Assembly (NCBI RefSeq): GCF_058153355.1
Contig: NZ_CM177019.1
Length of the DNA: 64,000 nt
Reading direction: 5' to 3' (one strand)
In this document: positions 5,203-30,820 of the stretch, piece after piece
Layout of the letters: the number at the start of each line of letters is the position of its first letter
Position numbering within the stretch: the first letter of the stretch is position 1
The notes under the pieces: model-generated
Database searches by the model: none
Seen by the model: only the letters and a program-made list of their open reading frames with translations
Told to the model about the DNA's origin: nothing
Translations under genes and position numbers: made by a program

Positions 5203-5210
5203 TATACGGG

Positions 5211-5480: not shown

Positions 5481-5489
5481 TTTGCCTCT

Positions 5490-6592: not shown

Positions 6593-6594
6593 CG

Positions 6595-8009: not shown

Positions 8010-8013
8010 GTCG

Positions 8014-8478: not shown

Positions 8479-8582
8479 GTGTTGCGGTCTTCCTGTGTCG
8501 CTACTGCTTATCGGCTAATTATCCTGCGTCTTGAACGCAACAAAGCGGGGAAAAGACGCGGATTACGGTGCTACCTCTGACG

Positions 8583-9710: not shown

Positions 9711-10150
9711 TCGGGTTTCCTCATGGTGGCACGTTGGGCGAACTCATCCATCTTTTTCTGATCGAGACGGTTTTCTGCAAGCAGTGCCGCCGTGGATTGC
9801 CGTTCCTGCAGTGTCTGCCAGGCCTGCAAACGTTGTTTCTTTTCTCGCCAGCTGTTCAGGGCAATGTCAACTTTCTGCGTCCACTGATTAAGTTGCTGGC
9901 GATGCTGAGTAATGGCTTTTTCCAGCGTCTGGATAAACTGCTGATAGTTGATCCAGCGGTTACTGGTCATCCCGGCACTCATATCGCTGTTGAGGTTATT
10001 GCGATATTCATTCTGATAATCGATCAGCATTTTGAGTTGTTCCTCTGCCTGCTGGCATCCGCGACGCATTTCACCCAGCAGGCGCGCGGCATCTTCTACC
10101 TCTTTTTCTGCCAGATCTTTCAGGGTCGCCAGCGCGCCATGTTCTGCCAT
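9707..10150 (-). CDS. fliJ: Flagellar export chaperone-escort protein FliJ
   Basis: 147-aa coiled-coil ORF. Confidence 0.92.
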
Positions 10151-10171
10151 CTGCCGTTATCTCCTGCGTTT

Positions 10172-11541
10172 TCACACTGTCGGGAATATGCGCTCCAGCC
10201 CCTGGAGAGACTCTTCCCAGTCCGCGCGTTCAAAAATGCCTTGTTGCAAATAGCCCTCCAGCTGCGGCCACAGAGCGATGGCTTTATCGAGCATTGGATC
10301 GCTGCCTTTGGCATACGCGCCGACGCTAACCAGATCGCGGTTACGCTGAAAACTCGACAACAGCTGTTTGAAGGTGCGCACTCGCGCGTAATGTTGCTCG
10401 CTGATCAACGCCGTCATTGCACGGCTGATCGACGCTTCAATATCAATCGCCGGATAGTGTCCGGCTTCCGCCAGACGACGAGAAAGAACAATGTGACCGT
10501 CGAGGATCGCCCGTGCGGAGTCGGCAATCGGGTCCTGCTGGTCATCGCCTTCGGTGAGCACGGTATAAAACGCCGTAATTGAGCCGCCGCCGCTGATACC
10601 GTTACCGGCACGCTCGACCAGCGCCGGTAATTTGGCGAATACCGACGGTGGATAACCTTTGGTGGCAGGCGGTTCGCCAATCGCCAGCGCAATCTCACGC
10701 TGGGCCATCGCGTAGCGGGTGAGGGAGTCCATAATCAGCAACACATGCTGACCACGATCGCGAAAATCTTCGGCAATGCGCGTGGCATAGGCGGCACCTT
10801 GCATTCGCAGGAGCGGAGAAACATCCGCTGGAGCGGCAATCACCACGGAGCGTGCACGCCCTTCGGCACCGAGGATATTCTCAATAAAATCTTTTACTTC
10901 GCGCCCACGTTCACCAATCAAACCCACGACAATGACATCGGCGCGGGTGTAACGTGCCATCATCCCCAGCAGCACACTTTTACCGACACCAGAACCAGCA
11001 AATAGCCCCATACGCTGCCCGCGCCCAACGGTAAGCAGGGCATTGATTGGGCGCACGCCCGTGTCCAGCACATGTTCAATCGGTGTACGTTGCAAAGGGT
11101 TAAAAGGCGGGGTGATCAGCGCACCTGTTTCGGTCGTATCGGGGGAGGGAAGGCCATCAAGCGGTTTACCGCTGCCGTCCAGTACGCGACCTAACAACGC
11201 CGGACCGAGTGGCAACTGCTTGCCGCTTTGCAGCCCTTCAGCCGAAATGTGTTTGGCATAAACGCGCGCGCCGGGCAGGACACCTTCCACTTCTTCCAGC
11301 GGCATTAAAAACAGCCGTTGACCGTTAAAACCAACCACTTCGCTTTCTACTTCATGCGTTTCCGACCCGTTCTGGCGCTCAATCACACAGGTTGCGCCGA
11401 GCGGCAATTGTAATCCGGTAGCCTCCAGCACCAGCCCGGTGGCGCGGGTTAATCGCCCGTAGCGACGTACCGCAGGCAACTGCGCCATTTTGGCTTCGAA
11501 GTTATCCAGCGTGGTTAGCCAGCGAGTCAGGCGCGTGGTCA

Positions 11542-11542
<1 letters not shown>
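10172..11542 (-). CDS. fliI: Flagellum-specific ATPase FliI
   Basis: 456-aa ORF with Walker A GSGVGKS. Confidence 0.95.
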
Positions 11543-14867
<3,325 letters not shown>

Positions 14868-15081
14868 CGCGCACCTCGTGGCTGATTATGGACGGCGTTA
14901 TTGGCAAAGTGGAACAAGACTCACTCCCGGGTCAGCAAACTCGAAAAATTGACGCTCTCATTATTTGTGCTTTCGTTTTTTTCTATCCGCCAATAAACCC
15001 GTTTTTTTGTTGCTATTTAGCGCCTTTGTCTTATTGACTTACTGGTAGGCTTTGCTACCAGAAATTATCCGGGAGATGAAA

Positions 15082-15396
15082 ATGTCAGCGATACAGGGGA
15101 TTGAAGGGGTTATTAGCCAGTTACAGGCTACGGCGATGAGTGCGCGTGCGCAGGAATCACTGCCGCAACCGACCATTAGTTTTGCCGGGCAGCTGCACGC
15201 CGCGCTCGATCGCATAAGCGATACACAAACCGCCGCCCGCACGCAGGCAGAAAAATTCACCCTCGGCGAACCCGGCGTGGCGTTAAACGATGTGATGACC
15301 GATATGCAAAAAGCCTCAGTTTCTATGCAAATGGGGATTCAGGTGCGTAATAAGCTGGTGGCGGCGTATCAGGAAGTGATGAGCATGCAGGTGTAA
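15082..15396 (+). CDS. fliE: Flagellar hook-basal body protein FliE (104 aa from [10 protein letters not shown])
   Basis: ORF 15052..15396 trimmed to the canonical start; divergent from fliF. Confidence 0.9.
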
Positions 15397-15729
15397 GTTG
15401 TGTAACCTGTTGTTGATTACATCCGATCTCACCGCGTGGGGCATGGATGGGGCAAACACACTCAATTTCTGGTTTAAAATGGAAACCTGATTCTGAAAGT
15501 TTTCTGCCATCCACGATCTGTAAACGCGATAACATGTTTTGTCTTCGCTTTGCTCATAGGAAGAGTGAACTCTTTCGTTAGCCTGGGGTTCCTTCTGATC
15601 ATTATTGTTCCTGCCTTTATCTCTTGCCACGCCAGAGCCCCCTGGATACACATACACCAGGATGAAAACGGTGAGTTGTGTTCAAACTGTAGTACAATTC
15701 TCTCCAGTATGAACAGGAAAGAATATGCT

Positions 15730-16062
15730 ATGAACCCTTATATTTATCTTGGTGGCGCAATACTTGCAGAGGTCATTGGTACAACCTTAATGAAGTTTTC
15801 AGAGGGGGTTACACGGTTATGGCCCTCTGTTGGCACAATTATTTGTTATTGTGCCTCATTCTGGTTATTAGCTCAGACGCTGGCTTATATACCTACAGGG
15901 ATTGCTTATGCTATCTGGTCAGGAGTCGGTATCGTTCTGATTAGTTTGCTTTCCTGGGGATTTTTTGGCCAACGGCTGGACCTGCCAGCCATCATAGGCA
16001 TGATGTTGATTTGTGCCGGTGTGTTAGTCATTAACTTGTTGTCACGAAGTGCACCGCATTAA
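15730..16062 (+). CDS. emrE: Small multidrug resistance (SMR) efflux protein EmrE
   Basis: C-terminal 110 aa of ORF 15550..16062 (MNPYIYLGGAILAEVIGTTLMKFSEG...) match recalled EmrE, including the conserved Glu14. Confidence 0.9.
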   Translation: MNPYIYLGGAILAEVIGTTLMKFSEGVTRLWPSVGTIICYCASFWLLAQTLAYIPTGIAYAIWSGVGIVLISLLSWGFFGQRLDLPAIIGMMLICAGVLVINLLSRSAPH

Positions 16063-16230
16063 AAAATAATCATCCTTGAGATAACAAGAATCTGATTTGT
16101 GCATATTATGGCTAATGTTCGGGGCAACTTTATAATTATGATTGCATTTGCGCGATCATTGCGCCTTTTTGCATAATGAGATCAAGGCACATCAAATAAA
16201 ATAACGATAGGTCACAACAAAGAGGTTTTT

Positions 16231-16782
16231 ATGAAAAAACTTATCGTTTCAAGTGTATTGGCATTCATAACATTTTCTGCGCAGGCCGCAGCATTTCAGG
16301 TCACTAGTAATGAAATAAAAACAGGAGAGCAACTTACAACGTCTCATGTATTTTCTGGATTTGGGTGTGAGGGGGGGAATACATCGCCCTCATTAACCTG
16401 GTCTGGTGCTCCTGAAGGCACCAAAAGCTTTGCCGTAACTGTGTATGATCCAGATGCGCCTACAGGCAGTGGATGGTGGCACTGGACTGTTGCTAATATT
16501 CCAGCAACGGTAACATATTTGCCCGCTGATGCAGGAAGACGTGATGGTACAAAACTTCCGACTGGTGCTGTCCAAGGCCGAAATGATTTTGGCTATGCGG
16601 GATTTGGTGGAGCATGTCCTCCCAAAGGAGATAAACCCCATCATTACCAGTTTAAAATATGGGCTCTAAAAACTGATAAGATTCCTGTGGATTCTAATTC
16701 CAGCGGAGCGTTAGTTGGTTATATGCTTAATGCCAATAAAATTGCAACCGCTGAGATAACACCCGTTTATGAGGTAAAGTAG
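16231..16782 (+). CDS. ybcL: YbcL, periplasmic PEBP/RKIP-family (UPF0098) protein; DLP12-prophage-type cargo
   Basis: 183-aa ORF with signal peptide and PEBP motifs (DPDAP, GWWHW, GxHHY); follows emrE as in DLP12. Confidence 0.85.
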   Translation: MKKLIVSSVLAFITFSAQAAAFQVTSNEIKTGEQLTTSHVFSGFGCEGGNTSPSLTWSGAPEGTKSFAVTVYDPDAPTGSGWWHWTVANIPATVTYLPADAGRRDGTKLPTGAVQGRNDFGYAGFGGACPPKGDKPHHYQFKIWALKTDKIPVDSNSSGALVGYMLNANKIATAEITPVYEVK

Positions 16783-16791
16783 GATAAGAGT

Positions 16792-17589
16792 ATGCTGGCA
16801 AAAGATAGGACTAACCTAAAGATTGAAGAAATACGGATGCATAAACATCATGAGATTCACAGGGTTAAGCCTCTTATGCCAGCTTTATGTCGTATCCGTC
16901 AGGGAAAAAAAGTTATCAATTGGGAGACGCATAGTCTAACTGTTGATAATAATCAGATAATATTATTTCCCTGTGGATATGAATTTTATATTGCGAATTA
17001 CCCAGAAGCAGGTCTTTATCTTGCAGAAATGCTTTATTATCCCATTGATCTAATTGAAAAGTTCCAAAATCTTTATGCGATAACCGATCAAATTCGTAAC
17101 ACGACAGGTTTCTGCTTACCTCAGAATCCCGAGTTAATATATTGTTGGGAGCAACTAAAAACATCTGTTTCCCGAGGCTTCTCAACGCAAATTCAGGAAC
17201 ACTTAGCAATGGGCGTTCTACTTTCATTAGGAGCACATCATGTTAATTGTTTACTTTTATCAGATAGTAAACAATCATTAATAAGTCGTTGTTATAACCT
17301 AATGCTATCCGAACCTGGAACAAAATGGACAGCAAACAGGGTAGCGAGATATCTCTACATTTCTGTTTCCACATTGCATCGCCGTCTGGCAAGCGAGGGA
17401 GTAAGTTTTCAAAGTATATTGGACGACGTGAGGTTAAATAATGCGTTGTCTGCTATACAAACGACAGTAAAACCCATCAGCGAGATTGCCAGGGAAAATG
17501 GTTACAAGTGTCCTTCTCGTTTTACTGAAAGGTTCCATAATCGTTTTAAGATAACACCAAGAGAGCTAAGAAAAGCGTCCAGAGAGTAA
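16792..17589 (+). CDS. ybcM: AraC-family transcriptional regulator YbcM
   Basis: 265-aa ORF with C-terminal AraC-type HTH; order matches DLP12 ybcL-ybcM. Confidence 0.8.
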
Positions 17590-17598
17590 AAGTATTTT

Positions 17599-17718
17599 AT
17601 GAAGGAGCAACAGCATCGATTTTTATTTTGGAAAATCAATACGGCATACTCAACCTATTGGAGCCTGAACAATCCGGTGACTTCTGCGCTAATCGGGGAC
17701 GTTTATAAGCACATATAA
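17599..17718 (+). CDS. Candidate small ORF (39 aa, MKEQQHRFLFWKINTAYSTYWSLNNPVTSALIGDVYKHI), possibly ylcH-like
   Basis: Short ORF immediately after ybcM, where DLP12 carries ylcH; no convincing ribosome-binding site. Confidence 0.25.
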   Translation: MKEQQHRFLFWKINTAYSTYWSLNNPVTSALIGDVYKHI

Positions 17719-18042
17719 TTGATACTCTCTTCCTCCATCACAATTTCAGAAATGCACGTGTGATTTTTTGGCATCCGGCGTTTGGACTATGTGGAGTTCA
17801 AGAGTGGGAAAGTTACAAGAGGTTGAGGGGATAATTAAAGGGATGCTTATGACATTAGATATCCGGTTAGGTACGGATATCGTTGTTATTAAATCTAATT
17901 GATACGTTAATTGTTCACTGAGTATTATTAAAAATGGGGCGTTGAAACGCCCCAGAAAATAAAGGGTAATATATAACAGAAGGTTTATATAGTCAGAAGC
18001 AAGATAGCGCTTCTAAGGAAAGTGGCTTGAGGGGGCCACTTA

Positions 18043-18075
18043 TATGTTGGGGAGGCAAAGCCTCCCACAACATAT
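18043..18075 (-). terminator. Perfect inverted repeat (atgttggggaggc / gcctcccacaacat) just downstream of the porin gene
   Basis: 13-bp stem with 4-nt loop directly 3' of the porin stop at 18091. Confidence 0.6.
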
Positions 18076-18090
18076 CTTTGAGTAATCAGA

Positions 18091-19173
18091 TTAGAACTGG
18101 TAAACCAATCCTACAGCAACGATATCATCGGTAGCAACGCCAGATGCTTTCGTGAAATCGCTCTTATCAATCAGGTTGATTTTGTAATCAACAAAAGTGG
18201 ACATATTTTTGTTGAAGTAATAGGTTGCACCTACATCAATATATTCAACCAGGTCCTGATCACCCCACGCACCCAAGTCTTTTCCTTTAGATTGCAGGTA
18301 AGCAACGGACGGACGCAGACCGAAGTCGAACTGATATTGTGCAACTACTTCGAAGTTTTGTGCTTTGTTGGCAATATGGTTATTACCAAAAACAGTCATG
18401 TTCTGGGTTTCAGAATAGGTGGTAGCCAGATAGATGTTGTTCGCATCATATTTCAGACCAGCTGCCCATACTTCAGCATTTTGACCAGATGCATTCAGGC
18501 TGTTGTTACCGTAGATAACCTGATCATTAGTGCGGTCAGATTTAGCATAGGTTGCACCTACACCGAATCCTTCATACTCATAAGTAGTGGAGAAACCGAA
18601 ACCATCACCGTTAGCTTCAGTTACGTCAGTGCGGTCATTTTTACCCTGATACTGAGCAGCAAAGTTCAGACCATCAACCAGACCAAAGAAGTCGTTGTTA
18701 CGATAAGTTGCAACACCTGTGGTGCGACCAGTCATGAACACATCTGTTTGGGTCCAGGTATCGCCACCGAATTCTGGCAGAACGTCGGTCCATGCACCGA
18801 TATCGTATGCTACACCGTAGTTACGGCCATAATCGATGGAGCCGTAGTCACCGAATTTCAGGCCAGCGAAGGCAAGACGGGTTTTATCTTTGGAAGAACC
18901 TTGAGATTCAGCACGGTTGCCTTTGAATTCATATTCCCACTGACCGAAACCAGTCAGTTGATCGTTGATTTGGGTTTCGCCTTTGAAGCCCAGACGAACA
19001 TAAGTTGTGTCGCCATCATCTGCATCGTTAGAAGAGAAGTAGTGCTTAGCATTAACTTTTCCGTACAGATCCAGCTTGTTACTGTCTTTATTGTAAATCT
19101 CTGCTGCCTGAGCAGACATCGCCATCAGTACTGATGCAGCTACAGCAGAAATTGCCACTGTTAATTTTTTCAT
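18091..19173 (-). CDS. nmpC: Intact NmpC/OmpD-type general porin of the OmpC/OmpF family
   Basis: 360-aa ORF with signal peptide ([23 protein letters not shown]) and C-terminal ...VGLVYQF; closest to recalled NmpC; prophage-type cargo on the opposite strand to emrE-ybcM as in DLP12. Confidence 0.8.
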
Positions 19174-19703
19174 CGTGAGCCCTTTTATTTGAACTATTAT
19201 TTAAAAATGATGTCACTGCACCACAAATATTCATCTAATCAATGAGATTATTTCAAGATGTAAGTTTTAGTTTCTCATTTAAATTGTGAAGTAGATCCCT
19301 ATTTTTATCTGAACTGTTTCTATTGCACACAATGCATGACTATTTTGTGAACGAATATAAATTTGGTAGTCAAATTATATTAAAGGTTGTTATTTATGAT
19401 TGACTCATAATTTATTTATTTAATTTAAATAGCCTAAAAATAACCATGGAGATTATTTGCATGATATTTGTTTAGATTTGTTAATGTAGTTGAGGTGATT
19501 TTATTTAATACGCAATATAGCGCCGCTTGATATTAGTTCTATTTTTTTTTTGCGTAAGATAGATGAGACAAACTGAGACGCATAATGGTTTGCAAGGCTC
19601 TAATACTTTGATGTTGAGGATGTGATGGGGCATGTACGTGCATAGTACAATGATGTCCATGCCGGTGTGGATAATCTCCAGGCTTATCCGGTGCGCCGTA
19701 AAA

Positions 19704-20177
19704 CCCCGTCCTTCAGGGCGGGGATATAAGGCGCGGTTTTCCACCTGACCAGGTGTTTGCTGTTGTTCAATGTATTGGCGGATGACGGATATTGGCGCAC
19801 CTCCGCAGCTACTGGCAAAATAGCCGGGACTCCACAAAACGCCTTTGTAGTAATACCTGACTGCAATATCTGGTCGATCTCGTCGCAGTAATCTACCCGA
19901 TACGCCTTTGTGGCTGTTTACCAGACTGGATATCGCCAGTTTGGGAGGATAGTTAATTAACAAATGGACGTGATTCTGGTTCGCCATCCATTTCAACCAG
20001 TTCAGCTTCAAAATCAGCACATACATTTGAAAAGTAAGTGCGTAGTTTTTCTGTCGCGTCATGGTCAAAAATCTGACGTCGGTATCTGGTGACAAAGACC
20101 CGGTGAACATGCATCAGAAAAACACAGTGCCTTCCACGCCGGATATCGGTTTCTTTTTTCACAGACCAAAGTATCAT
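19704..20177 (-). pseudogene. tnpA: IS200/IS605 Y1 (HuH) transposase TnpA, split by a frameshift
   Basis: N-terminal part in ORF 19953..20177 (HCVFLMHVHRVFVTRYRRQIF...ELVEMDGEPE); HuH motif and catalytic-Tyr region in a different frame in ORF 19505..20110 (NHVHLLINYPP...SCGGAPISVIRQYIEQQQ); frame switch near 19965..19985. Confidence 0.7.
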
Positions 20178-20184
20178 TTGGCCT

Positions 20185-21393
20185 GTGAAACGACTACAAG
20201 CATTTAAATTCCAGTTAAGACCAGGTGGTCAACAGGAGCGTGAAATGAGGCGCTTCGCAGGCGCATGTCGTTTCGTTTTCAATCGTGCTCTGGCACGTCA
20301 GAATGAGAATCATGAGGCCGGTAATAAATACATCCCTTACGGGAAAATGGCTTCCTGGCTGGTTGAGTGGAAAAATGCCACTGAAACGCAATGGCTTAAA
20401 GATTCGCCCTCACAGCCATTGCAACAGTCACTGAAAGACCTTGAGCGGGCTTACAAAAACTTCTTCCAGAAGCGGGCTGCTTTTCCCCGATTCAAAAAGC
20501 GGGGACAGAATGATGCATTCCGCTACCCGCAGGGCGTTAAGCTCGATCAGGAAAACAGCCGTATTTTTCTGCCGAAACTGGGCTGGATGCGCTACCGGAA
20601 CAGCCGTCAGGTCACGGGTGTTGTGAAAAATGTCACGGTCAGCCAGTCCTGCGGTAAGTGGTACATCAGTATTCAGACAGAAAGTGAAGTATCCACTCCG
20701 GTTCATCCTTCAGCATCAATGGTCGGGCTGGATGCTGGCGTGGCTAAACTCGCCACGCTGTCAGATGGCACAGTCTTTGAGCCTGTAAACAGTTTTCAGA
20801 AAAACCAGAAGACGCTGGCGAGACTTCAGCGACAGTTAAGCCGCAAGGTCAAATTCAGCAACAACTGGCAGAAGCAGAAACGCAAAATACAGCGACTGCA
20901 TTCCCGTATCGCAAATATCCGCAGGGACTACCTTCACAAAGTCACAACGACCGTCAGCAAAAACCACGCAATGATAGTCATTGAGGATTTGAAGGTCAGC
21001 AACATGTCAAAGTCAGCAGCGGGTACGGTCAGCCAGCCGGGGCGCAATGTCCGGGCAAAATCAGGTTTAAACCGTTCGATACTGGATCAGGGCTGGTATG
21101 AAATGCGCCGCCAGCTTGAGCACAAGCAGCTCTGGAGTGGCGGTCAGGTGCTTGCTGTTCCGCCAGCGTACACAAGCCAGCGTTGCGCGTGCTGTGGTCA
21201 TACAGCGAAAGAAAACCGCCTGTCACAAAGTAAATTCAGATGCCAGGTATGTGGATATACAGCGAACGCCGATGTAAATGGCGCTCGTAACATTTTAGCG
21301 GCGGGGCACGCCGTTCTTGCCTGTGGAGAGATGGTGCAGTCAGGCCGCCCGTTGAAGCAGGAACCCACCGAAATGATTCAGGCGACAGCCTGA
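20185..21393 (+). CDS. tnpB: TnpB (IS605 OrfB), RuvC-like RNA-guided endonuclease; intact; GTG start
   Basis: 402-aa ORF; N-terminus resembles TnpB; C-terminal zinc finger CxxC...CxxC ([37 protein letters not shown]) and RuvC-like segments. Confidence 0.85.
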
Positions 21394-21432
21394 ACGTAGC
21401 AGGGATCCACGTCCTTCAGGGCGTGGAGGATG

Positions 21433-22105
21433 TCAACAAACAGGTTGAATTAACTTCGCGCCCTGGTTTTTGACATTACCCACCGCGCGCGACACAGGGT
21501 GCCAGGTGAACTGGTTTGCTGGAACACAGCCACTGGCAGAAATTTCAGAGGCTTCTTTACCGCTAATCTCTTGCCGCATCCATTCCCGCGCAGCTTCTGG
21601 CGACAGTACCAGCGGGCGGCGGTCATGAATATCTACCAGACCCTGGTCTGCTGCTGCAGTGACAATTAAAAATCCTTCGGCTTCGTCACCACGCTCAAAC
21701 GGTGTGCTACCTATCGCGGCTATAAAAACAGGTTGTCCATCAGCGCGATAGATAAAATAAGGCTGTTTTTTTGTCGCCTTCTTTTTTCCACTCAAACCAG
21801 CCATCGGCAAAACAGATTGCCCGACCATGTTGCCAGAGCGGTTTAAACATACGACTGGTTGCCGCAGTTTCTACGCGGGCGTTAATCAGCGGCGGTTTAT
21901 CCCACCATCCGGGAGCATATCCCCAGAAAACCGGATCCAGATGAAGGTGTTCATCACGTTCACTGAGCAGAAGAACTTTGGTTCCCGGCGCGACGTTGTA
22001 TCTGCCAATGGGTTCGGGATCGTAGGGAATATCGCGTTCAATATCTTCCGCGAGAAGCGCAAGGTAATCTTCACGCGTTTGGGATTGGGCAAAGCGTCCA
22101 CACAT
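21433..22105 (-). pseudogene. yedK: YedK (SRAP/HMCES-family abasic-site processing protein) disrupted by a +1 frameshift in a homopolymer run
   Basis: N-terminal 121-aa ORF (MCGRFAQSQ..., catalytic Cys2) and C-terminal 131-aa ORF overlap in different frames; 7-nt T run at 21766..21772 where the intact reading requires 6. Confidence 0.8.
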
Positions 22106-22213
22106 AGCAACCTCCTGAGATCATACTGAAAAGAATAGGAGAGGGGGCGGGTAAAATCTATGTGATGCAGAGGTAACGATGTTCCCGCTGTTGGCCACAG
22201 CGGGAATGAGGGA

Positions 22214-22447
22214 TTACTTCTGAATTAAATAACGAATGGTCGGCCCGTCTTGCTGAATATCCAGCACCGTATAGCCGTGATTACGCGCATCCAGTGGAAT
22301 ATTATTGATCGACTGCGGACAGTCGCTCACCACTTCCAGGATCTCACCTTTTTTTAATTGCGGCATCGCCTCAAGGGTTGCGACTGCCGGATAAGGGCAG
22401 GGTTCACCCACCATATCAAGGCGGTAATCAGGAACGATATTTTTCAT
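22214..22447 (-). CDS. yedF: TusA-like sulfurtransferase-family protein YedF
   Basis: 77-aa ORF with CPxP motif (EPCPYP). Confidence 0.88.
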   Translation of the reverse strand: MKNIVPDYRLDMVGEPCPYPAVATLEAMPQLKKGEILEVVSDCPQSINNIPLDARNHGYTVLDIQQDGPTIRYLIQK

Positions 22448-23649
22448 GCGATCTCCTTAGCAGTCTGCGGTGCCGCACGGCGGAAGAAGCGTTTTTCCCA
22501 GCCGATAATCAACATCAGCGCAGCAAACAGCAGCAAATATGTCACCAGCAGGCCACCCATCGGACCAAAGGTTTTCAGTAGGTTGATTTTGTCCCAGTCG
22601 GTGGCCAGCGCCGGAGCGAAATCATCCCAGTAATACGCCAGAATCGTTGAGCCGATCACGTTGCCCAGACCGACCCACCAGTAGTGCACCTGGCCTTCTA
22701 CCGCGCGGTACATCCAGCCGGTTTCGCAACCGCCTGCCAGCACGATGCCAAAACCAAACAGTAAACCACCGATTACCGCGTTCGGCCCCGCCCACATGAT
22801 TTTGGGTTCAACGCCTAACTGGACGTAACTGAAGATCCCGATGGCACTTACCGCCATACCGATAATGATTGCTTTCGCCATGTGGGTACGTCCGGTGATC
22901 CACATATCGCGGAACGCCGAAGTAAAGCAGATTTGCGCACGTTCAATCAGTAAACCAAAGCCGACGCCAAACAGCATTGCCAGCCCCAGTTTTGGTTGGT
23001 TCATCGCCGTCAGCAGCGCCCAGCCCAGCATGCCGAAAAAGACCAGCATCCCGAGACGAAAACGACGCCGCGCCTGATCCGGTTTTTGCGTCAGCGGTGA
23101 GGCGGCAGAAACTTTCTGCATTTTCACGGGAATACGGAAGATGGGCAGCAGGGTAAAGCGCGCGCCAAACCATGAACCAATGGCAGTGGCGATGGCAAAG
23201 AACCAGGCATGCAGCGAGAACTGAGGAATGCCGGTAAAGAACGCCGCCAGGTTACAGCCCATTGCCAGACGCGCGCCAAAACCGGCGATAATGCCGCCAA
23301 TGATGGCCTGCATAATGCGGATACGGCTGCGCGGCATGCGTAGTTTGACATTGTTGGCCCACAGCGCTGCAGCAAAGCAGCCGCCAAACATACCGAGGAT
23401 CATCATGCCGTCGATGCGGGTTAATGGCGATCCTTCCAGATGAATAATTTTAAAATAACCCCACTCTTCAGCATGGACGCCGAACAGCTGCAGGAGCTGA
23501 CCGCCCCAACGGGTAAATTCACCCGTGACAGCCCAAAAGGTGCCAGTGATGCCAAAGTAGTAAGTGGAGAGAATACCCGCCGCGATGACCGCAGGGATGG
23601 GTGCCCAGAATTTAATCAACCAGGCGTGTTTGAATTGCTGCCATGACAT
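22444..23649 (-). CDS. yedE: YedE, YeeE/YedE-family inner membrane transporter (selenium/thiosulfate-related)
   Basis: 401-aa polytopic membrane ORF overlapping yedF. Confidence 0.88.
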   Translation of the reverse strand: MSWQQFKHAWLIKFWAPIPAVIAAGILSTYYFGITGTFWAVTGEFTRWGGQLLQLFGVHAEEWGYFKIIHLEGSPLTRIDGMMILGMFGGCFAAALWANNVKLRMPRSRIRIMQAIIGGIIAGFGARLAMGCNLAAFFTGIPQFSLHAWFFAIATAIGSWFGARFTLLPIFRIPVKMQKVSAASPLTQKPDQARRRFRLGMLVFFGMLGWALLTAMNQPKLGLAMLFGVGFGLLIERAQICFTSAFRDMWITGRTHMAKAIIIGMAVSAIGIFSYVQLGVEPKIMWAGPNAVIGGLLFGFGIVLAGGCETGWMYRAVEGQVHYWWVGLGNVIGSTILAYYWDDFAPALATDWDKINLLKTFGPMGGLLVTYLLLFAALMLIIGWEKRFFRRAAPQTAKEIA

Positions 23650-23832
23650 GTATGTAGCCTCTGAACTCAGAAGGTTTGAAACAAGAGTCGCGAATCATAC
23701 ATCAAGCAAATTTATTTTCGGGGTAATAATTCACAAAAATAATAGTTAGATCAAATTTCTCTCTGAACCTGGAAAGGCTGGCGACATCAGGGCTTTAATG
23801 CCACAATCCTCTTTTCTTCTCATGCAGGACGA

Positions 23833-24249
23833 ATGATGAAAAAACTCGCAATTGCAGGCGCGCTCATGTTGCTGGCGGGCTGTGCCGAAGTCGAAAACTA
23901 TAACAATGTCGTTAAAACCCCCGCGCCGGACTGGCTGGCGGGCTACTGGCAGACCAAAGGGCCGCAAAGTGCGCTGGTCAGTCCGGAAGCGATAGGCAGC
24001 CTGATTGTCACTAAAGAGGGCGATACCCTGGATTGCCGTCAGTGGCAGCGGGTGATTGCTGTGCCGGGTAAGTTGACATTGATGTCTGATGATCTCACTA
24101 ACGTTACCGTAAAACGTGAGCTGTACGAGGTTGAGCGTGAAGGTAACACCATTGAGTACGATGGAATGACGATGGAGCGTGTGGATCGCCCGACGGCAGA
24201 GTGTGCCGCTGCGCTGGATAAAGCGCCGTTACCGACGCCATTGCCGTAA
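23833..24249 (+). CDS. yedD: Lipoprotein YedD
   Basis: 138-aa ORF with lipobox (LLAGC). Confidence 0.8.
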   Translation: MMKKLAIAGALMLLAGCAEVENYNNVVKTPAPDWLAGYWQTKGPQSALVSPEAIGSLIVTKEGDTLDCRQWQRVIAVPGKLTLMSDDLTNVTVKRELYEVEREGNTIEYDGMTMERVDRPTAECAAALDKAPLPTPLP

Positions 24250-24282
24250 TGAAATCTCCCCGGCTTGCCGCCGGGGATGAAT

Positions 24283-25770
24283 TTAAATCACCTCTTCGAT
24301 AACCCACACGCTGACGCTGCCGCCGTTGCAAAAGAAGGTCGCTTCGCCGTTTTCGTCGGTCACTACGCTCTCTTGCCGATTCCCCAGAAAATCACGCCAG
24401 GTTTTATTGCCGTAATTCTCTCCCAGATGAATGGTTTTTTCGCCATCATCTCCGTTCGACATGACCACCACGCAGCCGGGATATTCGTCGGTGCCACTGC
24501 GGCTAAAGGCAATGCAGTTCGGATGGTCGAAAAATAACGTCTGTACACCGTGGGCGAAACGCTGACGGGCGAGAATTAACTCATCAAGTTGTTCGATTAT
24601 TGGCATATCTATCGGATAGGTTTGCCCGTCACCGCCGACATCTTCGTAATGCGCGCCATAGAGGTCAGGATAGAACACCGAAGGAACGCCATTTTCCCGC
24701 AACAAAATTAAGGCATACGCCAGCGGTTTAAACCACGGTTCGACCGGCGCTTCGAGGGCTTGCAACGGTTGGGTGTCATGGTTGGCAACGAGGGTTACGG
24801 CGTGAAAAGGATCGGCTTCCACCAGCGTCCCAGTGAAAATCTGCGTCATGTCGTAGTCGCGTCCCATGCGCGATGCTTCATGGAATTTCATCTGCAGCGG
24901 CGCATCGAACAGCATGGTTTTGCCTTCCACCTGATCAATATACGTTTGCAGCTTATCAACTTCATGCGACCAGTACTCCGCCACAATAAACAGCGGCTTT
25001 GGCGCAACTTCTTGTACGTGTTCGACCCACTCTTTATAAAACCAGGCTGGAATATGTTTGACCGCATCAAGACGAAAACCGTCGCATTGCGTTTGTTCCA
25101 TCACCCAGCGCGCCCAGTATTTAATCTCTTCCGTCACGGCATGATTGCGAAAATCGATATTCTCGCCCATCAGATAATCGAAATTACCGAGTTCATCATC
25201 AACCTGATCGTTCCAGCCTTCGCCGGTGTAGTCGTTAACAATTTTAAAAATGCCATCTTCATTGGGGTTTTCGATATGGTCGATACCGCTAAAACATTTG
25301 AAATCCCAGATAAACTGCGAGTATTGCCCGGCACGGGCGGGGAAGGTGTAACGCGTCCAGCCTTCGCATTCAATGATTTCTTCATCAATTTGCGTACGGT
25401 CGTCAGCATTAACGCGCTGCACGCGAATAGCTTCTTTTTCATCCGCGCCCATTTTGTGATTGACTACCACGTCCAGCAGCACCGCAATGTCATTACGTTT
25501 CAGAGCGTCAATGGCGGCCAGCAGTTGTGCTTTATCGCCATATTTAGTAGGGATGCTGCCTTTCTGATCAAACTCGCCTAAATCAAATAAATCATAGGAG
25601 TCGTAGCCGACCGAATACCCGCCCGATGCGCCTTTATAGGCGGGCGGCAACCAGACCATATTGATACCAATATCATTAAAACCGTCGGCGCGCTCGGCCA
25701 GTTCAGGCCAGAGCTTACCGCCTTCCGGGTAATACCAGTGAAAACATTGTAACAGCGTGGGATTACGCAT
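24283..25770 (-). CDS. amyA: Cytoplasmic alpha-amylase AmyA
   Basis: 495-aa ORF with GH13 motifs ([12 protein letters not shown]). Confidence 0.92.
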
Positions 25771-25847
25771 TCTTCGACTCCATTCAAGGGGAACATTAGA
25801 AGCGTAGCCGTAATCGGATTATTCGCGAGCCATCGGCTCGTTAAGAT

Positions 25848-26213
25848 TCAAAAGAGGTTATCCTGCGGAGCCAGCACAAAGCCGCCCTGATCGCCATAGG
25901 CACTTAACACCGATTTTTGTACCGATGACTGACCGACCAGTTTCGCCAGTTCATCCATCCGAATCTGCAATAACTGCTTTACCCTGCTTTCGTTGTCGAG
26001 AATCAGGCGCAGCATCGGGCGGAGTTGCTCCTGCATCGTGGTGGACGGATCAATCTCTTCAGTCAGATGTGCAATCTCCTGCACCGCATTCACATACGCC
26101 ATTTCGCTGGCGATGAGTTCGTCCCATTGTTCTTCTGTTGCCAGGCGTAACATGAGCTGGCTTTTTTCGACGAGTTGTTGCCAGGCGAAATACAAATGCG
26201 GTGCATGGTTCAT
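25848..26213 (-). CDS. fliT: Flagellar chaperone / anti-FlhDC factor FliT
   Basis: 121-aa ORF downstream of fliS. Confidence 0.9.
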
Positions 26214-26623
26214 CAGACTGGGTCCTGAATCAAAGAAGGGGAGAGTAAAGACTCTTTCCAGGCATCGGCAATATTGCGCATTAATGCTTCCACTTCTTCG
26301 ACTGCGGAGACATCGTTGCGTAAATTGGCTTGCAGCAAGCGCCTGACCATATAGCTATAAAGAGCAATCAAGTTTTGGGTTAGTTCGTCTTTGCTCTCTT
26401 CATCAAGACTCACCCGCAGCCCGTTCTCAATGATGTTGATCGCTTTTGACAAAGAGACGCCTTTGCCTTGCTGATTGTTGTCCTGCATAAACAGGCGCGC
26501 TCTAACCAGTGCGCTCAGCACTCCATCAAATAGCATGGTGACCAGCTGCTGCTGGCTGGCGCTCATTACGGCGCTTTCGACGCCAATTTGTGCATAGGCC
26601 TGGGTGCCTTTTGCCGCGTACAT
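26213..26623 (-). CDS. fliS: Flagellin-specific chaperone FliS
   Basis: 136-aa ORF. Confidence 0.92.
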
Positions 26624-26638
26624 AGTTTCTCCTGAAGA

Positions 26639-28054
26639 TTATTTCGAGTTGCTATTTGAGGTGTCGAACTGCTGTGTCAGATAGCTACTGGTGGAGTTAA
26701 GCGAGTTCATTAACACATCTAATTGGGTGAACTGGGCTTTATAGCGCGTCATTAAGGTATCGATACGCTCACTGGCTGCGTTGTACTGGTCGGTCAAATT
26801 ATTCAGCGTTTTGCTGACGCCATCTTTTGCGGCCTGGATTATCCCGGTGGAAGAGAGCCAACTGGTCAGGTTGCTACTAATGCCGGTAGTTACCCCTGTA
26901 CTTTTACCGTCACCTATAAACATTTCACCGATGCCAGCGGCATCTTTTTTTAGTGCCGTTTGCAGTTTGTCGGTCGCGATTTCCAGCTTGCCGGTACTGG
27001 CATCGCTGGTAATGCCAATCTGTGCCAGCGTTTTATAGTTTGAACTGCTGTGAGTATTGGCGAGCAAGGTTTTAAGCTGAGTCTGGATGGTACGCAGTGT
27101 GGAGTCACCAAGTAATGCTCCATTACTGGAGTCCTGACTTTCTGCTCCGGCATCGACAGCGGTGTATTTGGTTAAGCTACTGAATGTATCCTGCAATGTG
27201 TTATAGGCATCCACCCATGCTTTGACTGCATTTTCAGCTTTGGATGTGTCTTTACTGATGGTCAGTGTCTGATTACCGGTGGTGACGTCATTCAGGTTGA
27301 GTGTGATATCTTCCAGCGCGTCGCTGATAGTGTTACTGCTGTTTTCAATCTCAACGTTATTGACTGTTAGTTTGGCGTTTTGCGCGGTGACGCTTTCAAT
27401 CATGCCATTGCTGCTATCACCCGACGTTCCGTTGTAACCCATAAAACTTTCCAGGGCGCTGTCGCCGCTGACGCTAAGTTTCATAGCGTTATCGTTGCCC
27501 GTATCGTTAGCGGTGATGGACAGACGATATTCGCCGTTTCCCACATTGATGATACTGGCGCTGACACCAGCTTTGGCGTTGTTAATGGCATCGCGAATGC
27601 CGGAAAGTGACGAGTTAGCCGCGCTGATATCAATCGTGACCGGATCTTTACCGCCGCCTTGCTGGATGGTCAGTACGCTATCGCTGGTAGCGATGGCAGC
27701 TTTACTGTCTTTTTGACTAATTTTTGTGGTCAGCGTTTGTGCCTGCGCCAGTTGGCTAACGCTAATGGTGAATTTCCCGGCAATCGCGCTGCCCGTGGTG
27801 GTGGCGCTGAAAGCCGATGAACTGCTGGTGGTTGAAGTGGCGGTAAATAAATCGGCTTTATTCAGTGCTGTGTTGGCTGTCTGGAAACTCTCTAGTGCAC
27901 TTTTCAGCGTCCCGTAGGCGCTCAGTTTCGCGGTGTAAGAGCTTTGCTGTTTTGATATCGGCGTCAGGGTAGATTTTTCTGCCGCCTCCAGACTGTCAAG
28001 GATGCTGCTTAAGTCCAGCCCCGACCCAACCCCAAGCGTTGAAATACTAGCCAT
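26639..28054 (-). CDS. fliD: Flagellar filament cap protein FliD
   Basis: 471-aa ORF (MASISTLGVGSGLDLSSILDSL...). Confidence 0.92.
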   Translation of the reverse strand: MASISTLGVGSGLDLSSILDSLEAAEKSTLTPISKQQSSYTAKLSAYGTLKSALESFQTANTALNKADLFTATSTTSSSSAFSATTTGSAIAGKFTISVSQLAQAQTLTTKISQKDSKAAIATSDSVLTIQQGGGKDPVTIDISAANSSLSGIRDAINNAKAGVSASIINVGNGEYRLSITANDTGNDNAMKLSVSGDSALESFMGYNGTSGDSSNGMIESVTAQNAKLTVNNVEIENSSNTISDALEDITLNLNDVTTGNQTLTISKDTSKAENAVKAWVDAYNTLQDTFSSLTKYTAVDAGAESQDSSNGALLGDSTLRTIQTQLKTLLANTHSSSNYKTLAQIGITSDASTGKLEIATDKLQTALKKDAAGIGEMFIGDGKSTGVTTGISSNLTSWLSSTGIIQAAKDGVSKTLNNLTDQYNAASERIDTLMTRYKAQFTQLDVLMNSLNSTSSYLTQQFDTSNSNSK

Positions 28055-28096
28055 ATAGATTCCTTAATCATGCGACGTATAGAACGAATATCGAGG

Positions 28097-28123
28097 TTAT
28101 CGGCGTAAGCGGGGCAAAGTTTA
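28097..28123 (-). promoter_or_regulatory. sigma28 (FliA) class 3 promoter for fliDST
   Basis: Minus-strand TAAACTTT-N11-GCCGATAA, a near-perfect match to the sigma28 consensus TAAAGTTT-N11-GCCGATAA. Confidence 0.75.
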
Positions 28124-28196
28124 CGATTTATTTTTTGGTTTAATGACACGAACAGCAACGAGGAAGGGGAGTATTTCGACCGCTAGAAAAAAATTC

Positions 28197-28223
28197 TAAA
28201 GGTTGTGAGTGACCAGACGATAA
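28197..28223 (+). promoter_or_regulatory. sigma28 (FliA) class 3 promoter for fliC
   Basis: TAAAGGTT-N11-GACGATAA about 75 bp upstream of the fliC ATG. Confidence 0.75.
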
Positions 28224-28299
28224 CAGGGTTGACGGCGACGAAGCCGAAGGGTGGAAGCCCAATACCTAAACCGTAGACTTGAAAACAGGAAAAGAAATC

Positions 28300-29781
28300 A
28301 TGGCACAAGTCATTAATACCAACAGCCTCTCGCTGATCACTCAGAACAACATCAACAAAAACCAGTCTGCGCTGTCGACGTCTATCGAGCGTCTGTCTTC
28401 CGGTCTGCGTATCAACAGCGCAAAGGATGATGCAGCGGGCCAGGCCATTGCTAACCGTTTCACCTCTAACATTAAAGGCCTGACTCAGGCTGCACGTAAC
28501 GCCAACGACGGTATTTCTCTGGCGCAGACTACTGAAGGCGCGCTGTCTGAGATTAACAACAACTTGCAGCGTGTGCGTGAGTTGACTGTACAGGCGACGA
28601 CCGGGACTAACTCTGAATCTGACCTGTCTTCTATCCAGGATGAAATCAAATCCCGTTTAAGCGAAATTGACCGTGTTTCTGGTCAGACTCAGTTTAACGG
28701 CGTGAACGTACTGGCTAAGAATGACACCCTGTCTATTCAGGTAGGTGCAAATGACGGTCAGACTATCAATATTGACCTGCAGCAGATCGATTCTCATACA
28801 CTGGGTCTGGATGGTTTCAGCGTTAAAAACAATGATGCAGTGAAAACCAGTGCTGCGGTGAATACTCTTGGGGGTGGGGCAAGTTCTGTTGCTGTCGACT
28901 TCGCAACAACCAATTTGACTGCTATCGCTGGTCTCGGTGGCGGTGCTATCAGCGAAATTGCTAAAGACGATAATGGTGATTACTACGCGCATGTTACAGG
29001 GACTACGGGTAGTACTGCTGATGGTTACTATGCTGTCGATATTGACAAGGCTAACGGTAAGGTCGCTCTGAAAGATGGTAACGTAGATACACCGACAGGT
29101 ACGCCAACGACGACAAGCACATATGACTTCACAGACGCTGGTCAAACCGTTTCCTTTGGCACTGATGCTGCAACAGCAGGTATCAGCACTGGCGCTTCTC
29201 TCGTCAAACTTCAGGATGAGAAAGGCAATGATACTGCTACTTATGCAATCAAAGCACAAGATGGCAGCCTGTATGCCGCCAACGTTGATGAGACTACCGG
29301 TAAAGTCACTGTCAAAACCGCCAGCTATACCGATGCTGACGGCAAAGCAGTGACCGATGCCGCTGTAAAACTGGGTGGCGACAATGGCAAAACCGAAATT
29401 GTTGTCGATGCTGCGTCAGGTAAAACTTACGATGCTGGTGCACTGCAAAACGCTGATCTCTCCAGTGCAACCAACACGGTAACCGCAATCCCGAACGGTA
29501 AAACCACGTCTCCTCTGGCTGCCCTTGACGACGCAATCAGCCAGATCGACAAATTCCGCTCCTCCCTCGGTGCGGTACAAAACCGTTTGGATTCCGCCGT
29601 CACCAACCTGAACAACACCACTACCAACCTGTCTGAAGCGCAGTCCCGTATTCAGGACGCCGACTATGCGACCGAAGTGTCCAACATGTCGAAAGCGCAG
29701 ATTATCCAGCAGGCCGGTAACTCCGTGCTGGCAAAAGCCAACCAGGTACCGCAGCAGGTTCTGTCTCTGCTGCAGGGTTAA
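28300..29781 (+). CDS. fliC: Flagellin FliC (493 aa from MAQVINTNSL); conserved termini with a variable central H-antigen domain
   Basis: ORF trimmed to the canonical start; N- and C-terminal regions match recalled flagellin, central region diverges from K-12. Confidence 0.93.
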   Translation: MAQVINTNSLSLITQNNINKNQSALSTSIERLSSGLRINSAKDDAAGQAIANRFTSNIKGLTQAARNANDGISLAQTTEGALSEINNNLQRVRELTVQATTGTNSESDLSSIQDEIKSRLSEIDRVSGQTQFNGVNVLAKNDTLSIQVGANDGQTINIDLQQIDSHTLGLDGFSVKNNDAVKTSAAVNTLGGGASSVAVDFATTNLTAIAGLGGGAISEIAKDDNGDYYAHVTGTTGSTADGYYAVDIDKANGKVALKDGNVDTPTGTPTTTSTYDFTDAGQTVSFGTDAATAGISTGASLVKLQDEKGNDTATYAIKAQDGSLYAANVDETTGKVTVKTASYTDADGKAVTDAAVKLGGDNGKTEIVVDAASGKTYDAGALQNADLSSATNTVTAIPNGKTTSPLAALDDAISQIDKFRSSLGAVQNRLDSAVTNLNNTTTNLSEAQSRIQDADYATEVSNMSKAQIIQQAGNSVLAKANQVPQQVLSLLQG

Positions 29782-29955: not shown

Positions 29956-29980
29956 CCCCGCCACCGGCGGGGTTTTTTCT
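29956..29980 (+). terminator. Rho-independent terminator after fliC
   Basis: ccccgccaccggcgggg hairpin followed by a T run. Confidence 0.8.
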
Positions 29981-30067
29981 GTCCGCAATTTACCGGTAAC
30001 CCCCAAATAACCCCTCATTTCACCCACTAATCGTCCGATTAAAAACCCTGCAGAAACGGATAATCAT

Positions 30068-30100: not shown

Positions 30101-30820
30101 GTGAATTCACTCTATACCGCTGAAGGTGTAATGGATAAACACTCGCTGTGGCAGCGTTATGTCCCGCTGGTGCGTCACGAAGCATTGCGCCTGCAGGTTC
30201 GACTGCCCGCGAGCGTGGAACTTGACGATCTGCTACAGGCGGGCGGCATTGGGTTACTTAATGCCGTCGAACGCTATGACGCCCTACAAGGAACGGCATT
30301 TACAACTTACGCAGTGCAGCGTATCCGTGGCGCTATGCTGGATGAACTTCGCAGCCGTGACTGGGTGCCGCGCAGCGTGCGACGCAACGCGCGTGAAGTG
30401 GCACAGGCAATAGGGCAACTGGAGCAGGAACTTGGCCGCAACGCCACGGAAACTGAGGTTGCGGAACGTTTAGGGATCGATATTGCCGATTATCGCCAAA
30501 TGTTGCTCGACACCAATAACAGCCAGCTCTTCTCCTACGATGAGTGGCGCGAAGAGCACGGCGATAGCATCGAACTGGTTACTGATGATCATCAGCGAGA
30601 AAACCCGCTACAACAACTGCTGGACAGTAATCTGCGCCAGCGGGTGATGGAAGCCATCGAAACGTTGCCTGAGCGCGAAAAACTGGTATTAACCCTCTAT
30701 TACCAGGAAGAGCTGAATCTCAAAGAGATTGGCGCGGTGCTGGAGGTCGGGGAATCGCGGGTCAGTCAGTTACACAGCCAGGCCATTAAACGGTTACGCA
30801 CTAAACTGGGTAAGTTATAA
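30101..30820 (+). CDS. fliA: Flagellar sigma factor sigma28 FliA (GTG start)
   Basis: 239-aa ORF with sigma-70 family regions 2 and 4. Confidence 0.95.
   Translation: MNSLYTAEGVMDKHSLWQRYVPLVRHEALRLQVRLPASVELDDLLQAGGIGLLNAVERYDALQGTAFTTYAVQRIRGAMLDELRSRDWVPRSVRRNAREVAQAIGQLEQELGRNATETEVAERLGIDIADYRQMLLDTNNSQLFSYDEWREEHGDSIELVTDDHQRENPLQQLLDSNLRQRVMEAIETLPEREKLVLTLYYQEELNLKEIGAVLEVGESRVSQLHSQAIKRLRTKLGKL

What the first reader, a model, noticed from the sequence alone, without database searches (positions are those of the whole stretch)
28800..29500. Flagellin central domain differs from K-12 (distinct H-antigen type)
FliC has the conserved N- and C-terminal regions, but the central surface-exposed domain differs from my recollection of the K-12 H48 protein, and the protein is 493 aa. 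This is consistent with a different H serotype and, like the island, indicates a non-K-12 background.
Basis: partly seen in the sequence, partly recalled or inferred. Interest (0 to 1): 0.2.

Follow-up and report, generated by a model that had tools for sequence, protein, structure and literature searches.

The report
H24-type flagellin gene, not K-12 H48
The flagellin gene in this E. coli window encodes the rare but long-known H24 flagellar antigen rather than the H48 of K-12, which is an ordinary serotype difference; its nearest relatives outside E. coli are Pseudocitrobacter flagellins.

Summary
fliC lies at 28300-29781 (+) and encodes 493 aa, against 498 aa in K-12. The ends are conserved against K-12 H48 (aa 1-180 92.8%, aa 401-493 94.6% identical). 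The centre is not (aa 181-282 30%, aa 283-400 53%).

The interpretation, a different H type, is supported, and the type can be named. The protein matches the reference H24 flagellin (gi|30059884) at 449 of 461 residues with no gaps. The closest complete genome, strain XJ6.1, differs from that reference by one residue and was published as O23:H24 by SerotypeFinder.

The allele is rare. It occurs in 2 of 5,426 complete E. coli genomes and in one cluster of 11 sequences among about 15 billion proteins. It is still a known type, and the exact protein is already in NCBI (EGO8352146.1).

The window carries a variant H24 sub-lineage with 12 substitutions against the reference, 7 of them at aa 195-254.

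One side result goes beyond the finding. Outside the D3-like segment, the gene is 92-97% nucleotide-identical to Pseudocitrobacter fliC, while the flanking genes are only 76-83% identical. This suggests transfer between genera. The fliD and intergenic divergence from K-12 is a common E. coli allele, not part of the rarity.

Interest is low.

The parts
28300..29781 (+). fliC, flagellin, 493 aa plus stop; H24-type allele
   Evidence: ORF. NCBIfam FliC/FljB NF005953 scores 654 bits against a cutoff of 619. Pfam finds Flagellin_N, Flagellin_D3, FLIC_barrel and Flagellin_C. 449/461 aa match the H24 reference.
28300..28839 (+). Conserved N-terminal part (aa 1-180; D0/D1 helices)
   Evidence: 92.8% aa identity to K-12 and 99.4% aa to Pseudocitrobacter alleles. 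Nucleotide identity is 85.7% to K-12, at most 86.5% to any other E. coli allele family, and 94-97% to Pseudocitrobacter loci.
28840..29145 (+). Most variable segment (aa 181-282; D3-like, surface-exposed), probably the main H24-specific part
   Evidence: 30% aa identity to K-12. The best match outside the E. coli H24 cluster is only 57% aa. The Pfam Flagellin_D3 hit covers aa 208-274. Seven of the 12 substitutions against the H24 reference fall at aa 195-254.
29146..29499 (+). Second variable segment (aa 283-400; D2-like, includes the FLIC_barrel hit at aa 340-383)
   Evidence: 53% aa identity to K-12 but 92.4% aa to P. faecalis FliC. Over aa 283-370, nucleotide identity to P. faecalis is 92%.
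29500..29778 (+). Conserved C-terminal part (aa 401-493; D1/D0 helices)
   Evidence: 94.6% aa identity to K-12. The last 280 nt are 96% identical to many E. coli alleles.
28197..28223 (+). Sigma-28 (FliA) class 3 promoter-like site for fliC: TAAAGGTT-N11-GACGATAA
   Evidence: Read directly from the sequence. It matches the consensus TAAAGTTT-N11-GCCGATAA at 7/8 and 7/8. The consensus comes from established knowledge; function was not tested.
28097..28123 (-). Sigma-28 promoter-like site for fliDST: TAAACTTT-N11-GCCGATAA on the minus strand
   Evidence: Read directly from the sequence.
29956..29982 (+). Intrinsic-terminator-like hairpin plus T-run downstream of fliC
   Evidence: 7 G-C pairs, followed by TTTTTTCTGT.
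26639..28054 (-). fliD, filament cap, 471 aa; 73% nt identity to K-12 fliD but a common E. coli allele
   Evidence: ORF. NCBIfam FliD equivalog scores 683 bits. nt identity. The allele is present at 95% identity or more in 1,325 of 5,426 genomes.
30101..30820 (+). fliA, the sigma-28 factor that drives fliC; 99.4% nt identity to K-12

Best explanation
This is the ordinary chromosomal flagellin gene fliC of a non-K-12 E. coli, and it carries an H24-type allele.

The protein has the usual flagellin layout. The conserved N- and C-terminal helices (aa 1-180 and 401-493) form the filament core. A variable middle (aa 181-400) folds into the outer D2/D3 domains, which cover the filament surface and carry the H-antigen epitopes. 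Because the middle is H24 rather than H48, the strain should type as H24 in silico. If motile, it should probably agglutinate with H24 antiserum.

The gene sits in the canonical place between fliD and fliA. It has a sigma-28 promoter-like site and a terminator-like hairpin, and the ORF is intact.

Shown here: gene identity, length, the domain pattern of conservation, near-identity to the H24 reference, and rarity among E. coli genomes.

Inferred: expression, serological reactivity, and the evolutionary origin. On origin, the conserved and D2 parts look as if they came from the Pseudocitrobacter flagellin gene pool, while the D3 part has no close relative outside E. coli H24.
For: - Match to the reference: 449/461 aa identical with no gaps to gi|30059884, labelled H24 in the curated flagellin database in supplement file 9 of PMC3578835.
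- Published typing: the closest complete genome, XJ6.1, is 96.6% nt identical and 482/493 aa identical to the window gene. It differs from the reference by 1 aa and was published as O23:H24 by SerotypeFinder.
- No closer E. coli allele: the central 771 nt are covered at 80% or more in only 2 of 5,426 genomes, and the next best is H48 at 67% over half the query. In the protein database the next E. coli family is H48 at 69%.
- Flagellin family and fold: FliC/FljB NCBIfam score above cutoff, four Pfam flagellin domains, and a full-length alignment to the K-12 filament structure 8cxm at E about 1e-186.
- Canonical locus: fliT-fliS-fliD on one side and fliC-fliA-fliZ on the other. There is only one flagellin gene in the window.
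- Expression signals: promoter-like and terminator-like sites.
Against: - The allele is not identical to the reference. It has 12 substitutions, 7 of them at aa 195-254 in the exposed segment, so full serological equivalence is not proven.
- The H24 reference is partial (461 aa).
- The published H24 call concerns a related strain, not this one.
- Only part 5 of 11 of the reference flagellin database was read. Exclusion of the other H types therefore rests on the genome and protein searches, not on a direct comparison with all 53 references.
- Only 64 kb were seen. A second flagellin locus elsewhere in the genome, with a repressor of fliC, could change the expressed H antigen.
Confidence: 0.93

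Rival explanations
1. The allele is a serologically new H type or sub-factor. The 12 substitutions against the H24 reference, concentrated in the exposed segment, would change the epitopes enough that H24 antiserum no longer recognises the filament.
For: - Seven of the 12 substitutions lie at aa 195-254.
- The window allele belongs to a distinct sub-lineage shared by P0001, P0124, P0129 and P0130.
- Between the window and XJ6.1, 9 of 18 nucleotide differences in the central 660 nt change an amino acid. In the conserved parts, the 32 nucleotide differences change only 2 amino acids.
Against: - 97.4% identity without indels is well inside the variation normally pooled in one H type. SerotypeFinder's usual identity threshold, which I recall as 85% and did not check here, would still call it H24.
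- Most changes are conservative (S/G, N/S, A/T, T/A).
Confidence: 0.05
2. The fliC gene is H24 by genotype, but the strain expresses a different H antigen or none. It could carry a second flagellin locus (flkA, fllA, flmA or flnA type) with a fliC repressor outside the window, or it could be non-motile.
For: About 10 of the 53 H types are encoded outside fliC (PMC5343136), and only 64 kb of the genome are visible.
Against: - The window has a single flagellin gene.
- The ORF is intact with sigma-28 promoter-like sites.
- The neighbouring fliD, fliS, fliT, fliA and fliZ are intact.
- The rest of the window is colinear with the K-12 flhDC-mot-che region at 97% identity.
- XJ6.1 holds only one fliC-like place in its chromosome.
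Confidence: 0.05
3. The gene is the K-12-type H48 flagellin and the reader misremembered the K-12 sequence.
For: None. H48 is merely the closest other E. coli family.
Against: - Overall aa identity is 69%.
- aa 181-282 are 30% identical.
- Length is 493 aa against 498 aa.
Confidence: 0

Closest known systems
E. coli H24 flagellin (reference gi|30059884; full-length equivalent P0123, and WP_275877646.1 in strains XJ6.1 and JNEC-KY178)
   Same: Same length, no indels, 97.4% aa identity over the 461-aa reference, and the same locus between fliD and fliA.
   Different: Twelve substitutions against the reference: E106D, S195G, N205S, A210T, G214S, S238N, N252T, K254E, T332A, K364T, A385V, A478S (window residue first). 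There are 50 nucleotide differences from XJ6.1. These include a 125-nt stretch (fliC nt 76-200) where XJ6.1 is only 88% identical to every sequence compared, while the window is 99.2% identical to a Pseudocitrobacter-like allele.
E. coli K-12 H48 flagellin (WP_000079739.1; filament structure PDB 8cxm)
   Same: Same family, same domain order, same locus and same conserved termini (92.8% and 94.6% aa).
   Different: The central domain is only 30-53% aa identical. Length is 498 aa against 493 aa. The N-terminal coding DNA is only 85.7% identical.
Pseudocitrobacter faecalis flagellin (P0003, locus L004) and related alleles P0002, P0004, P0005
   Same: aa 1-180 are 99.4% aa identical (94-97% nt, third codon positions 83-91% identical). 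aa 283-400 are up to 92.4% identical. aa 401-493 are 99-100% identical. Gene order around fliC is the same.
   Different: The D3-like segment aa 181-282 is only 46-57% aa identical and longer, giving proteins of 504-508 aa. The flanking genes fliS, fliD and fliA are only 76-83% nt identical, as expected for a different genus.
Salmonella enterica phase-1 flagellin FliC (PDB 1ucu, 3a5x, 1io1)
   Same: Full-length alignment at E about 1e-137, with the same D0-D1-D2-D3 organisation.
   Different: A different species with a different antigenic centre. It is not a close allele.

Membership tests
FliC/FljB family flagellin | Score above the curated cutoff of the NCBIfam subfamily model | tested here: met
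   NF005953 scores 654 bits against a cutoff of 619. NF005294 scores 509 against 387.
FliC/FljB family flagellin | Flagellin_N and Flagellin_C helical domains flanking a variable insert | tested here: met
   Pfam PF00669 at aa 5-142, PF00700 at aa 407-491, PF08884 at aa 208-274, PF21504 at aa 340-383.
FliC/FljB family flagellin | Canonical fliC locus, divergent from fliDST and upstream of fliAZ, with a sigma-28 promoter | tested here: met
   Gene order. Promoter-like sites read; this is a consensus match only.
E. coli H24 antigen type | High sequence identity of the whole variable region to the H24 reference flagellin | tested here: met
   449/461 aa identical with no gaps to gi|30059884.
E. 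coli H24 antigen type | In silico H-typing tool returns H24 | tested here: inconclusive
   The tool was not run on this sequence. XJ6.1, the nearest complete genome (482/493 aa identical to the window protein, 1 aa from the reference), was published as O23:H24 by SerotypeFinder 2.0.
E. coli H24 antigen type | No other H type reference is closer | tested here: met
   This is indirect. Among 5,426 complete genomes only the two H24-like genomes cover the centre. The next E. coli protein family is H48 at 69%. Only the references H21-H29 were read directly.
E. coli H24 antigen type | Agglutination of motile cells with H24 antiserum | not testable with these tools
   This is a serological test.
E. 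coli H48 antigen type (K-12) | Central domain matches K-12 fliC | tested here: not met
   30% aa identity over aa 181-282 and 53% over aa 283-400. Nucleotide identity is 35-63% over 28871-29611.
Novel (unassigned) H type | Variable region unlike every recognised H-type reference | tested here: not met
   It matches the H24 reference at 97.4%.

The most novel reading that the evidence does not exclude
The E. coli H24 flagellin gene is an import from the Pseudocitrobacter flagellin gene pool, or from a close relative of that genus. In nt 76-200 of the gene the window's variant is closer to that source than the reference H24 allele is. Its D3 surface segment comes from a donor allele that has not been sampled.
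Probability: 0.55. Interest if true: 0.2.

Novelty: already known. Interest (0 to 1): 0.1.

Why it matters
It matters little beyond strain description. The H type is a standard epidemiological label. Knowing that the window carries H24, a rare type found in 2 of 5,426 complete genomes, helps to place the strain and confirms a non-K-12 background.

The side observation is a clean, small example of flagellin gene exchange between genera and of domain-wise mosaicism. The conserved and D2 parts of H24 are 92-97% nucleotide-identical to Pseudocitrobacter fliC, while the flanks are 76-83% identical. Lateral transfer and mosaic evolution of flagellin genes are already well established in enteric bacteria.

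Tried and rejected
- Novel H type. This first looked likely. PGAP gives the two matching genomes only generic names ('flagellin', 'flagellin N-terminal helical domain-containing protein'). NCBIfam has no H-type-specific hit. The 11-member protein cluster holds only recent accessions. The idea was rejected once the XJ6.1 serotype and the H24 reference sequence were found.
- Divergent 5' coding region as proof of foreign origin. The window's 5' region is at most 86.5% identical to all other E. coli alleles. This was weakened by a control: the 5' region of K-12's own fliC is only 87-93% identical to most other E. coli alleles. That number alone is therefore not an outlier. The case for transfer rests on the comparison with Pseudocitrobacter flanks.
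- fliD and intergenic divergence from K-12 as part of the same rare block. Rejected, because that allele is in 1,325 of 5,426 genomes.
- Literature searches for novel fliC or H types, and for Pseudocitrobacter with fliC, gave nothing relevant.
- Two papers were not held: Wang et al. 2003 (by DOI) and Banjo et al. 2018 (PMC5971530). As a result, reference gene lengths and Hg24 PCR primers could not be checked.
- The large genome contigs and metagenome scans, the structure prediction and the fold searches were deliberately not run. They would not have changed the verdict.

Full report
**1. What is at the coordinates**

The + strand ORF at 28279-29781 contains the conserved flagellin start MAQVINTN at 28300. 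This gives fliC = 28300-29781 and a protein of 493 aa. K-12 FliC is 498 aa.

The gene lies in the canonical position. fliD (26639-28054), fliS and fliT are on the minus strand to its left. fliA (30101-30820), fliZ, tcyJ and dcyD are to its right. This is the same order as in K-12 and in other E. coli genomes.

The protein passes the curated cutoff of the FliC/FljB NCBIfam model, 654 bits against 619. It has the four Pfam flagellin domains: Flagellin_N at aa 5-142, Flagellin_D3 at 208-274, FLIC_barrel at 340-383 and Flagellin_C at 407-491. It aligns end to end with the solved K-12 filament flagellin 8cxm at E about 1e-186.

Reading the intergenic region directly shows two divergent sigma-28-type promoter-like sites:
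- For fliC: TAAAGGTT-N11-GACGATAA at 28197-28223.
- For fliD, on the minus strand: TAAACTTT-N11-GCCGATAA at 28123-28097.

A G+C-rich hairpin with a T-run lies at 29956-29982. The window holds no second flagellin gene.

**2.

| Segment | aa identity to K-12 | nt identity to K-12 |
|---|---|---|
| aa 1-180 | 92.8% | 85.7% |
| aa 181-282 | 30% | 45.5% |
| aa 283-400 | 53% | not computed for this range |
| aa 401-493 | 94.6% | 90% |

The megablast alignment to K-12 stops at 28854 and resumes at 29494.

Relative to K-12, the divergent block also covers fliD and the fliD-fliC spacer, at 67-78% nt in 200-nt windows. That fliD and spacer allele is common: 1,325 of 5,426 complete E. coli genomes carry it at 95% identity or more, including ST131. 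It is not part of what makes this locus rare.

**3. Which H type**

Only 2 of 5,426 complete E. coli genomes contain the whole gene. They are XJ6.1 (bovine, China) and JNEC-KY178 (human, Japan), both at 96.6% nt identity. The same two are the only ones that cover the central 771 nt. The next best is H48, at 67% identity over half of the query.

In the protein collection the window protein is an exact match to EGO8352146.1 / HFG3507521.1. It sits in a cluster of 11 E. coli sequences. The next E. coli family is H48 at 69%.

I first suspected a new H type, because PGAP gives these genes only generic names. Two pieces of evidence settle the matter.
- The paper describing XJ6.1 lists it as O23:H24 by SerotypeFinder 2.0 (PMC10673294, Table 1).
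- The curated flagellin database in the supplement of the MS-H paper (PMC3578835, file 9) holds a sequence labelled H24, gi|30059884, 461 aa and partial at both ends.

The window protein matches that reference at 449 of 461 positions with no gap. XJ6.1 matches it at 460 of 461. The allele is therefore H24, one of the 43 H types encoded at fliC (PMC5343136).

**4. The window carries a variant H24 sub-lineage**

The 11 cluster members fall into two groups.
- A reference-type group: P0123 (identical to the reference over the shared 461 residues), P0121 (XJ6.1 and JNEC-KY178), P0126 and the truncated P0127.
- A second group that includes the window protein (P0122) together with P0001, P0124, P0129 and P0130.

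The differences from the reference, window residue first, are E106D, S195G, N205S, A210T, G214S, S238N, N252T, K254E, T332A, K364T, A385V and A478S.

Between the window and XJ6.1 there are 50 nucleotide differences. In the central 660 nt, 9 of 18 change an amino acid. In the conserved parts, the 32 nucleotide differences change only two amino acids. This is the usual pattern for flagellin: purifying selection on the filament core and relaxed or diversifying selection on the exposed domains. Whether the substitutions alter H24 serology cannot be tested here.

**5. How it works**

This section rests on established knowledge of the family. The conserved terminal helices (D0/D1) build the filament core. 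They are also the parts recognised by the export chaperone FliS, the cap protein FliD and host TLR5. The middle of the chain folds into the outer D2/D3 domains, which coat the filament and carry the H epitopes. Exchanging the middle changes the serotype without affecting assembly.

The sequence here fits that picture. The ORF is intact, the termini are conserved, a D3 domain and barrel are recognisable, sigma-28 promoter-like sites are present, and fliA is 99.4% identical to K-12's. Expression and motility were not tested.

**6. Side result: relation to Pseudocitrobacter**

After the E. coli H24 cluster, the closest proteins are not other E. coli H types. Buttiauxella, Kluyvera and Enterobacter follow at 76-79%.

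The DNA was fetched for four such loci. Three of them (L004, L009, L010) are mutually 99% identical in their flanks. The fourth (L008) is 92-97% identical to them, so it is a related lineage.

Against the window:

| Region | nt identity | Third-codon-position identity |
|---|---|---|
| Flanking genes fliS / fliD / fliA | 76.5% / 80.5% / 82.6% | 53-60% |
| fliC aa 1-180 | 94.3-96.7% | 83-91% |
| fliC aa 283-370, vs P. faecalis (L004) | 92% | 82% |
| fliC aa 401-493 | about 95% | 85-89% |

K-12 against P. faecalis serves as the control.
- For aa 1-180 it gives 85% nt and 65% at third positions.
- For aa 283-370 it gives 59% nt and 41% at third positions.
- For the C-terminus it gives 90% nt and 83% at third positions.

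The N-terminal and D2 comparisons are therefore informative, and the C-terminal one is not.

The D3-like segment aa 181-282 has no close relative anywhere. The best matches are 57% aa in P0004 and 56% in a Buttiauxella protein.

In fliC nt 76-200 the window is 99.2% identical to L008. XJ6.1 is 88% identical to every sequence compared there, which points to a small recombination patch in the reference-type allele.

Four different Pseudocitrobacter-type alleles share these conserved ends, while in E. coli the type is rare. The more economical reading is import into E. coli from that gene pool. The direction is inferred, not shown.

One caution applies. The 5' region's low identity to other E. 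coli alleles (at most 86.5%) is not on its own unusual. K-12's 5' region is itself only 87-93% identical to most other alleles.

No paper in the searchable library links Pseudocitrobacter with E. coli fliC types.

**7. Background of the window**

The window aligns to K-12 1855277-1915489 in three pieces:
- 1-15533 at 95.8% identity.
- 21437-28854 at 90.9%, lowered by fliD.
- 29494-64000 at 97.25%.

The interval 15534-21436 has no K-12 counterpart. It encodes an SMR transporter, a PEBP-family protein, an AraC-type regulator, a porin and an IS200/IS605 element (tnpA and tnpB), and it ends at a shortened yedK.

An 8-kb housekeeping stretch is 99.1-99.4% identical to the best complete E. coli genomes and 98.7% identical to strain 042. 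The organism is ordinary E. coli, not K-12.

Contig DAXYJU010000003.1 of assembly GCA_043012465.1 is 99.986% identical to window 18299-39781 and encodes the identical FliC.

**8. Verdict**

It can be sharpened to an H24-type fliC allele from a variant sub-lineage. This is already known biology. H24 is a recognised H type and this exact protein is already in public databases. Interest is low. The only mildly new element is the evident sharing of the non-D3 parts of the gene with Pseudocitrobacter flagellins.

Noticed in passing
window 15534-21436: A 5.9-kb segment with no counterpart in K-12, where K-12 has about 2 kb holding a DUF5503 pseudogene and yedL. Its ORFs hit the SMR transporter family (15550-16059), PEBP (16231-16779), an AraC-type regulator (16792-17586), a 360-aa Porin_1 protein (18094-19173, minus strand) and an IS200/IS605 pair: Y1 transposase at 19508-20110 (minus strand) and TnpB/OrfB at 20185-21390. 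The adjacent yedK (SRAP) ORF is only 131 aa (21436-21828), against 222 aa in K-12 (669-nt CDS), so it appears truncated next to the IS.
   Followed up: partly
window 26600-28299: fliD and the fliD-fliC spacer are only 67-78% nt identical to K-12. They nevertheless belong to a second allele class that is common in E. coli, found in 1,325 of 5,426 complete genomes including ST131. The spacer just upstream of fliC (28150-28280) is 91% identical to Pseudocitrobacter faecalis, against 67% for K-12 vs P. faecalis.
   Followed up: partly
L001 6076-6200 (fliC nt 76-200 of strain XJ6.1), compared with window 28375-28499: The reference-type H24 allele has a 125-nt stretch with 15 synonymous differences from the window allele. 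That stretch is only 88% identical to every sequence compared, which suggests a small recombination patch from an unsampled allele. The window allele is 99.2% identical to a Pseudocitrobacter-like locus (L008) there.
   Followed up: partly
window 1-15533: The left part of the window is only 95.8% identical to K-12 where K-12 has dgcQ through fliE, including the fliF-fliR operons. This is lower than the 97.25% on the right side (29494-64000). The cause was not examined.
   Followed up: no
proteins P0127 (STI47131.1) and P0130: Two members of the H24 protein cluster are 288-aa products that start at an internal Met (MTAIT.../MTAIA...). These fliC genes are either interrupted or mis-assembled in their source assemblies.
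   Followed up: no
L001 and L002 (strains XJ6.1 and JNEC-KY178), fliC at 6001-7482: NCBI's annotation names K-12's gene 'H48 family flagellin FliC' but gives H24-type genes only generic names. Annotation alone would not reveal the H type.
   Followed up: yes
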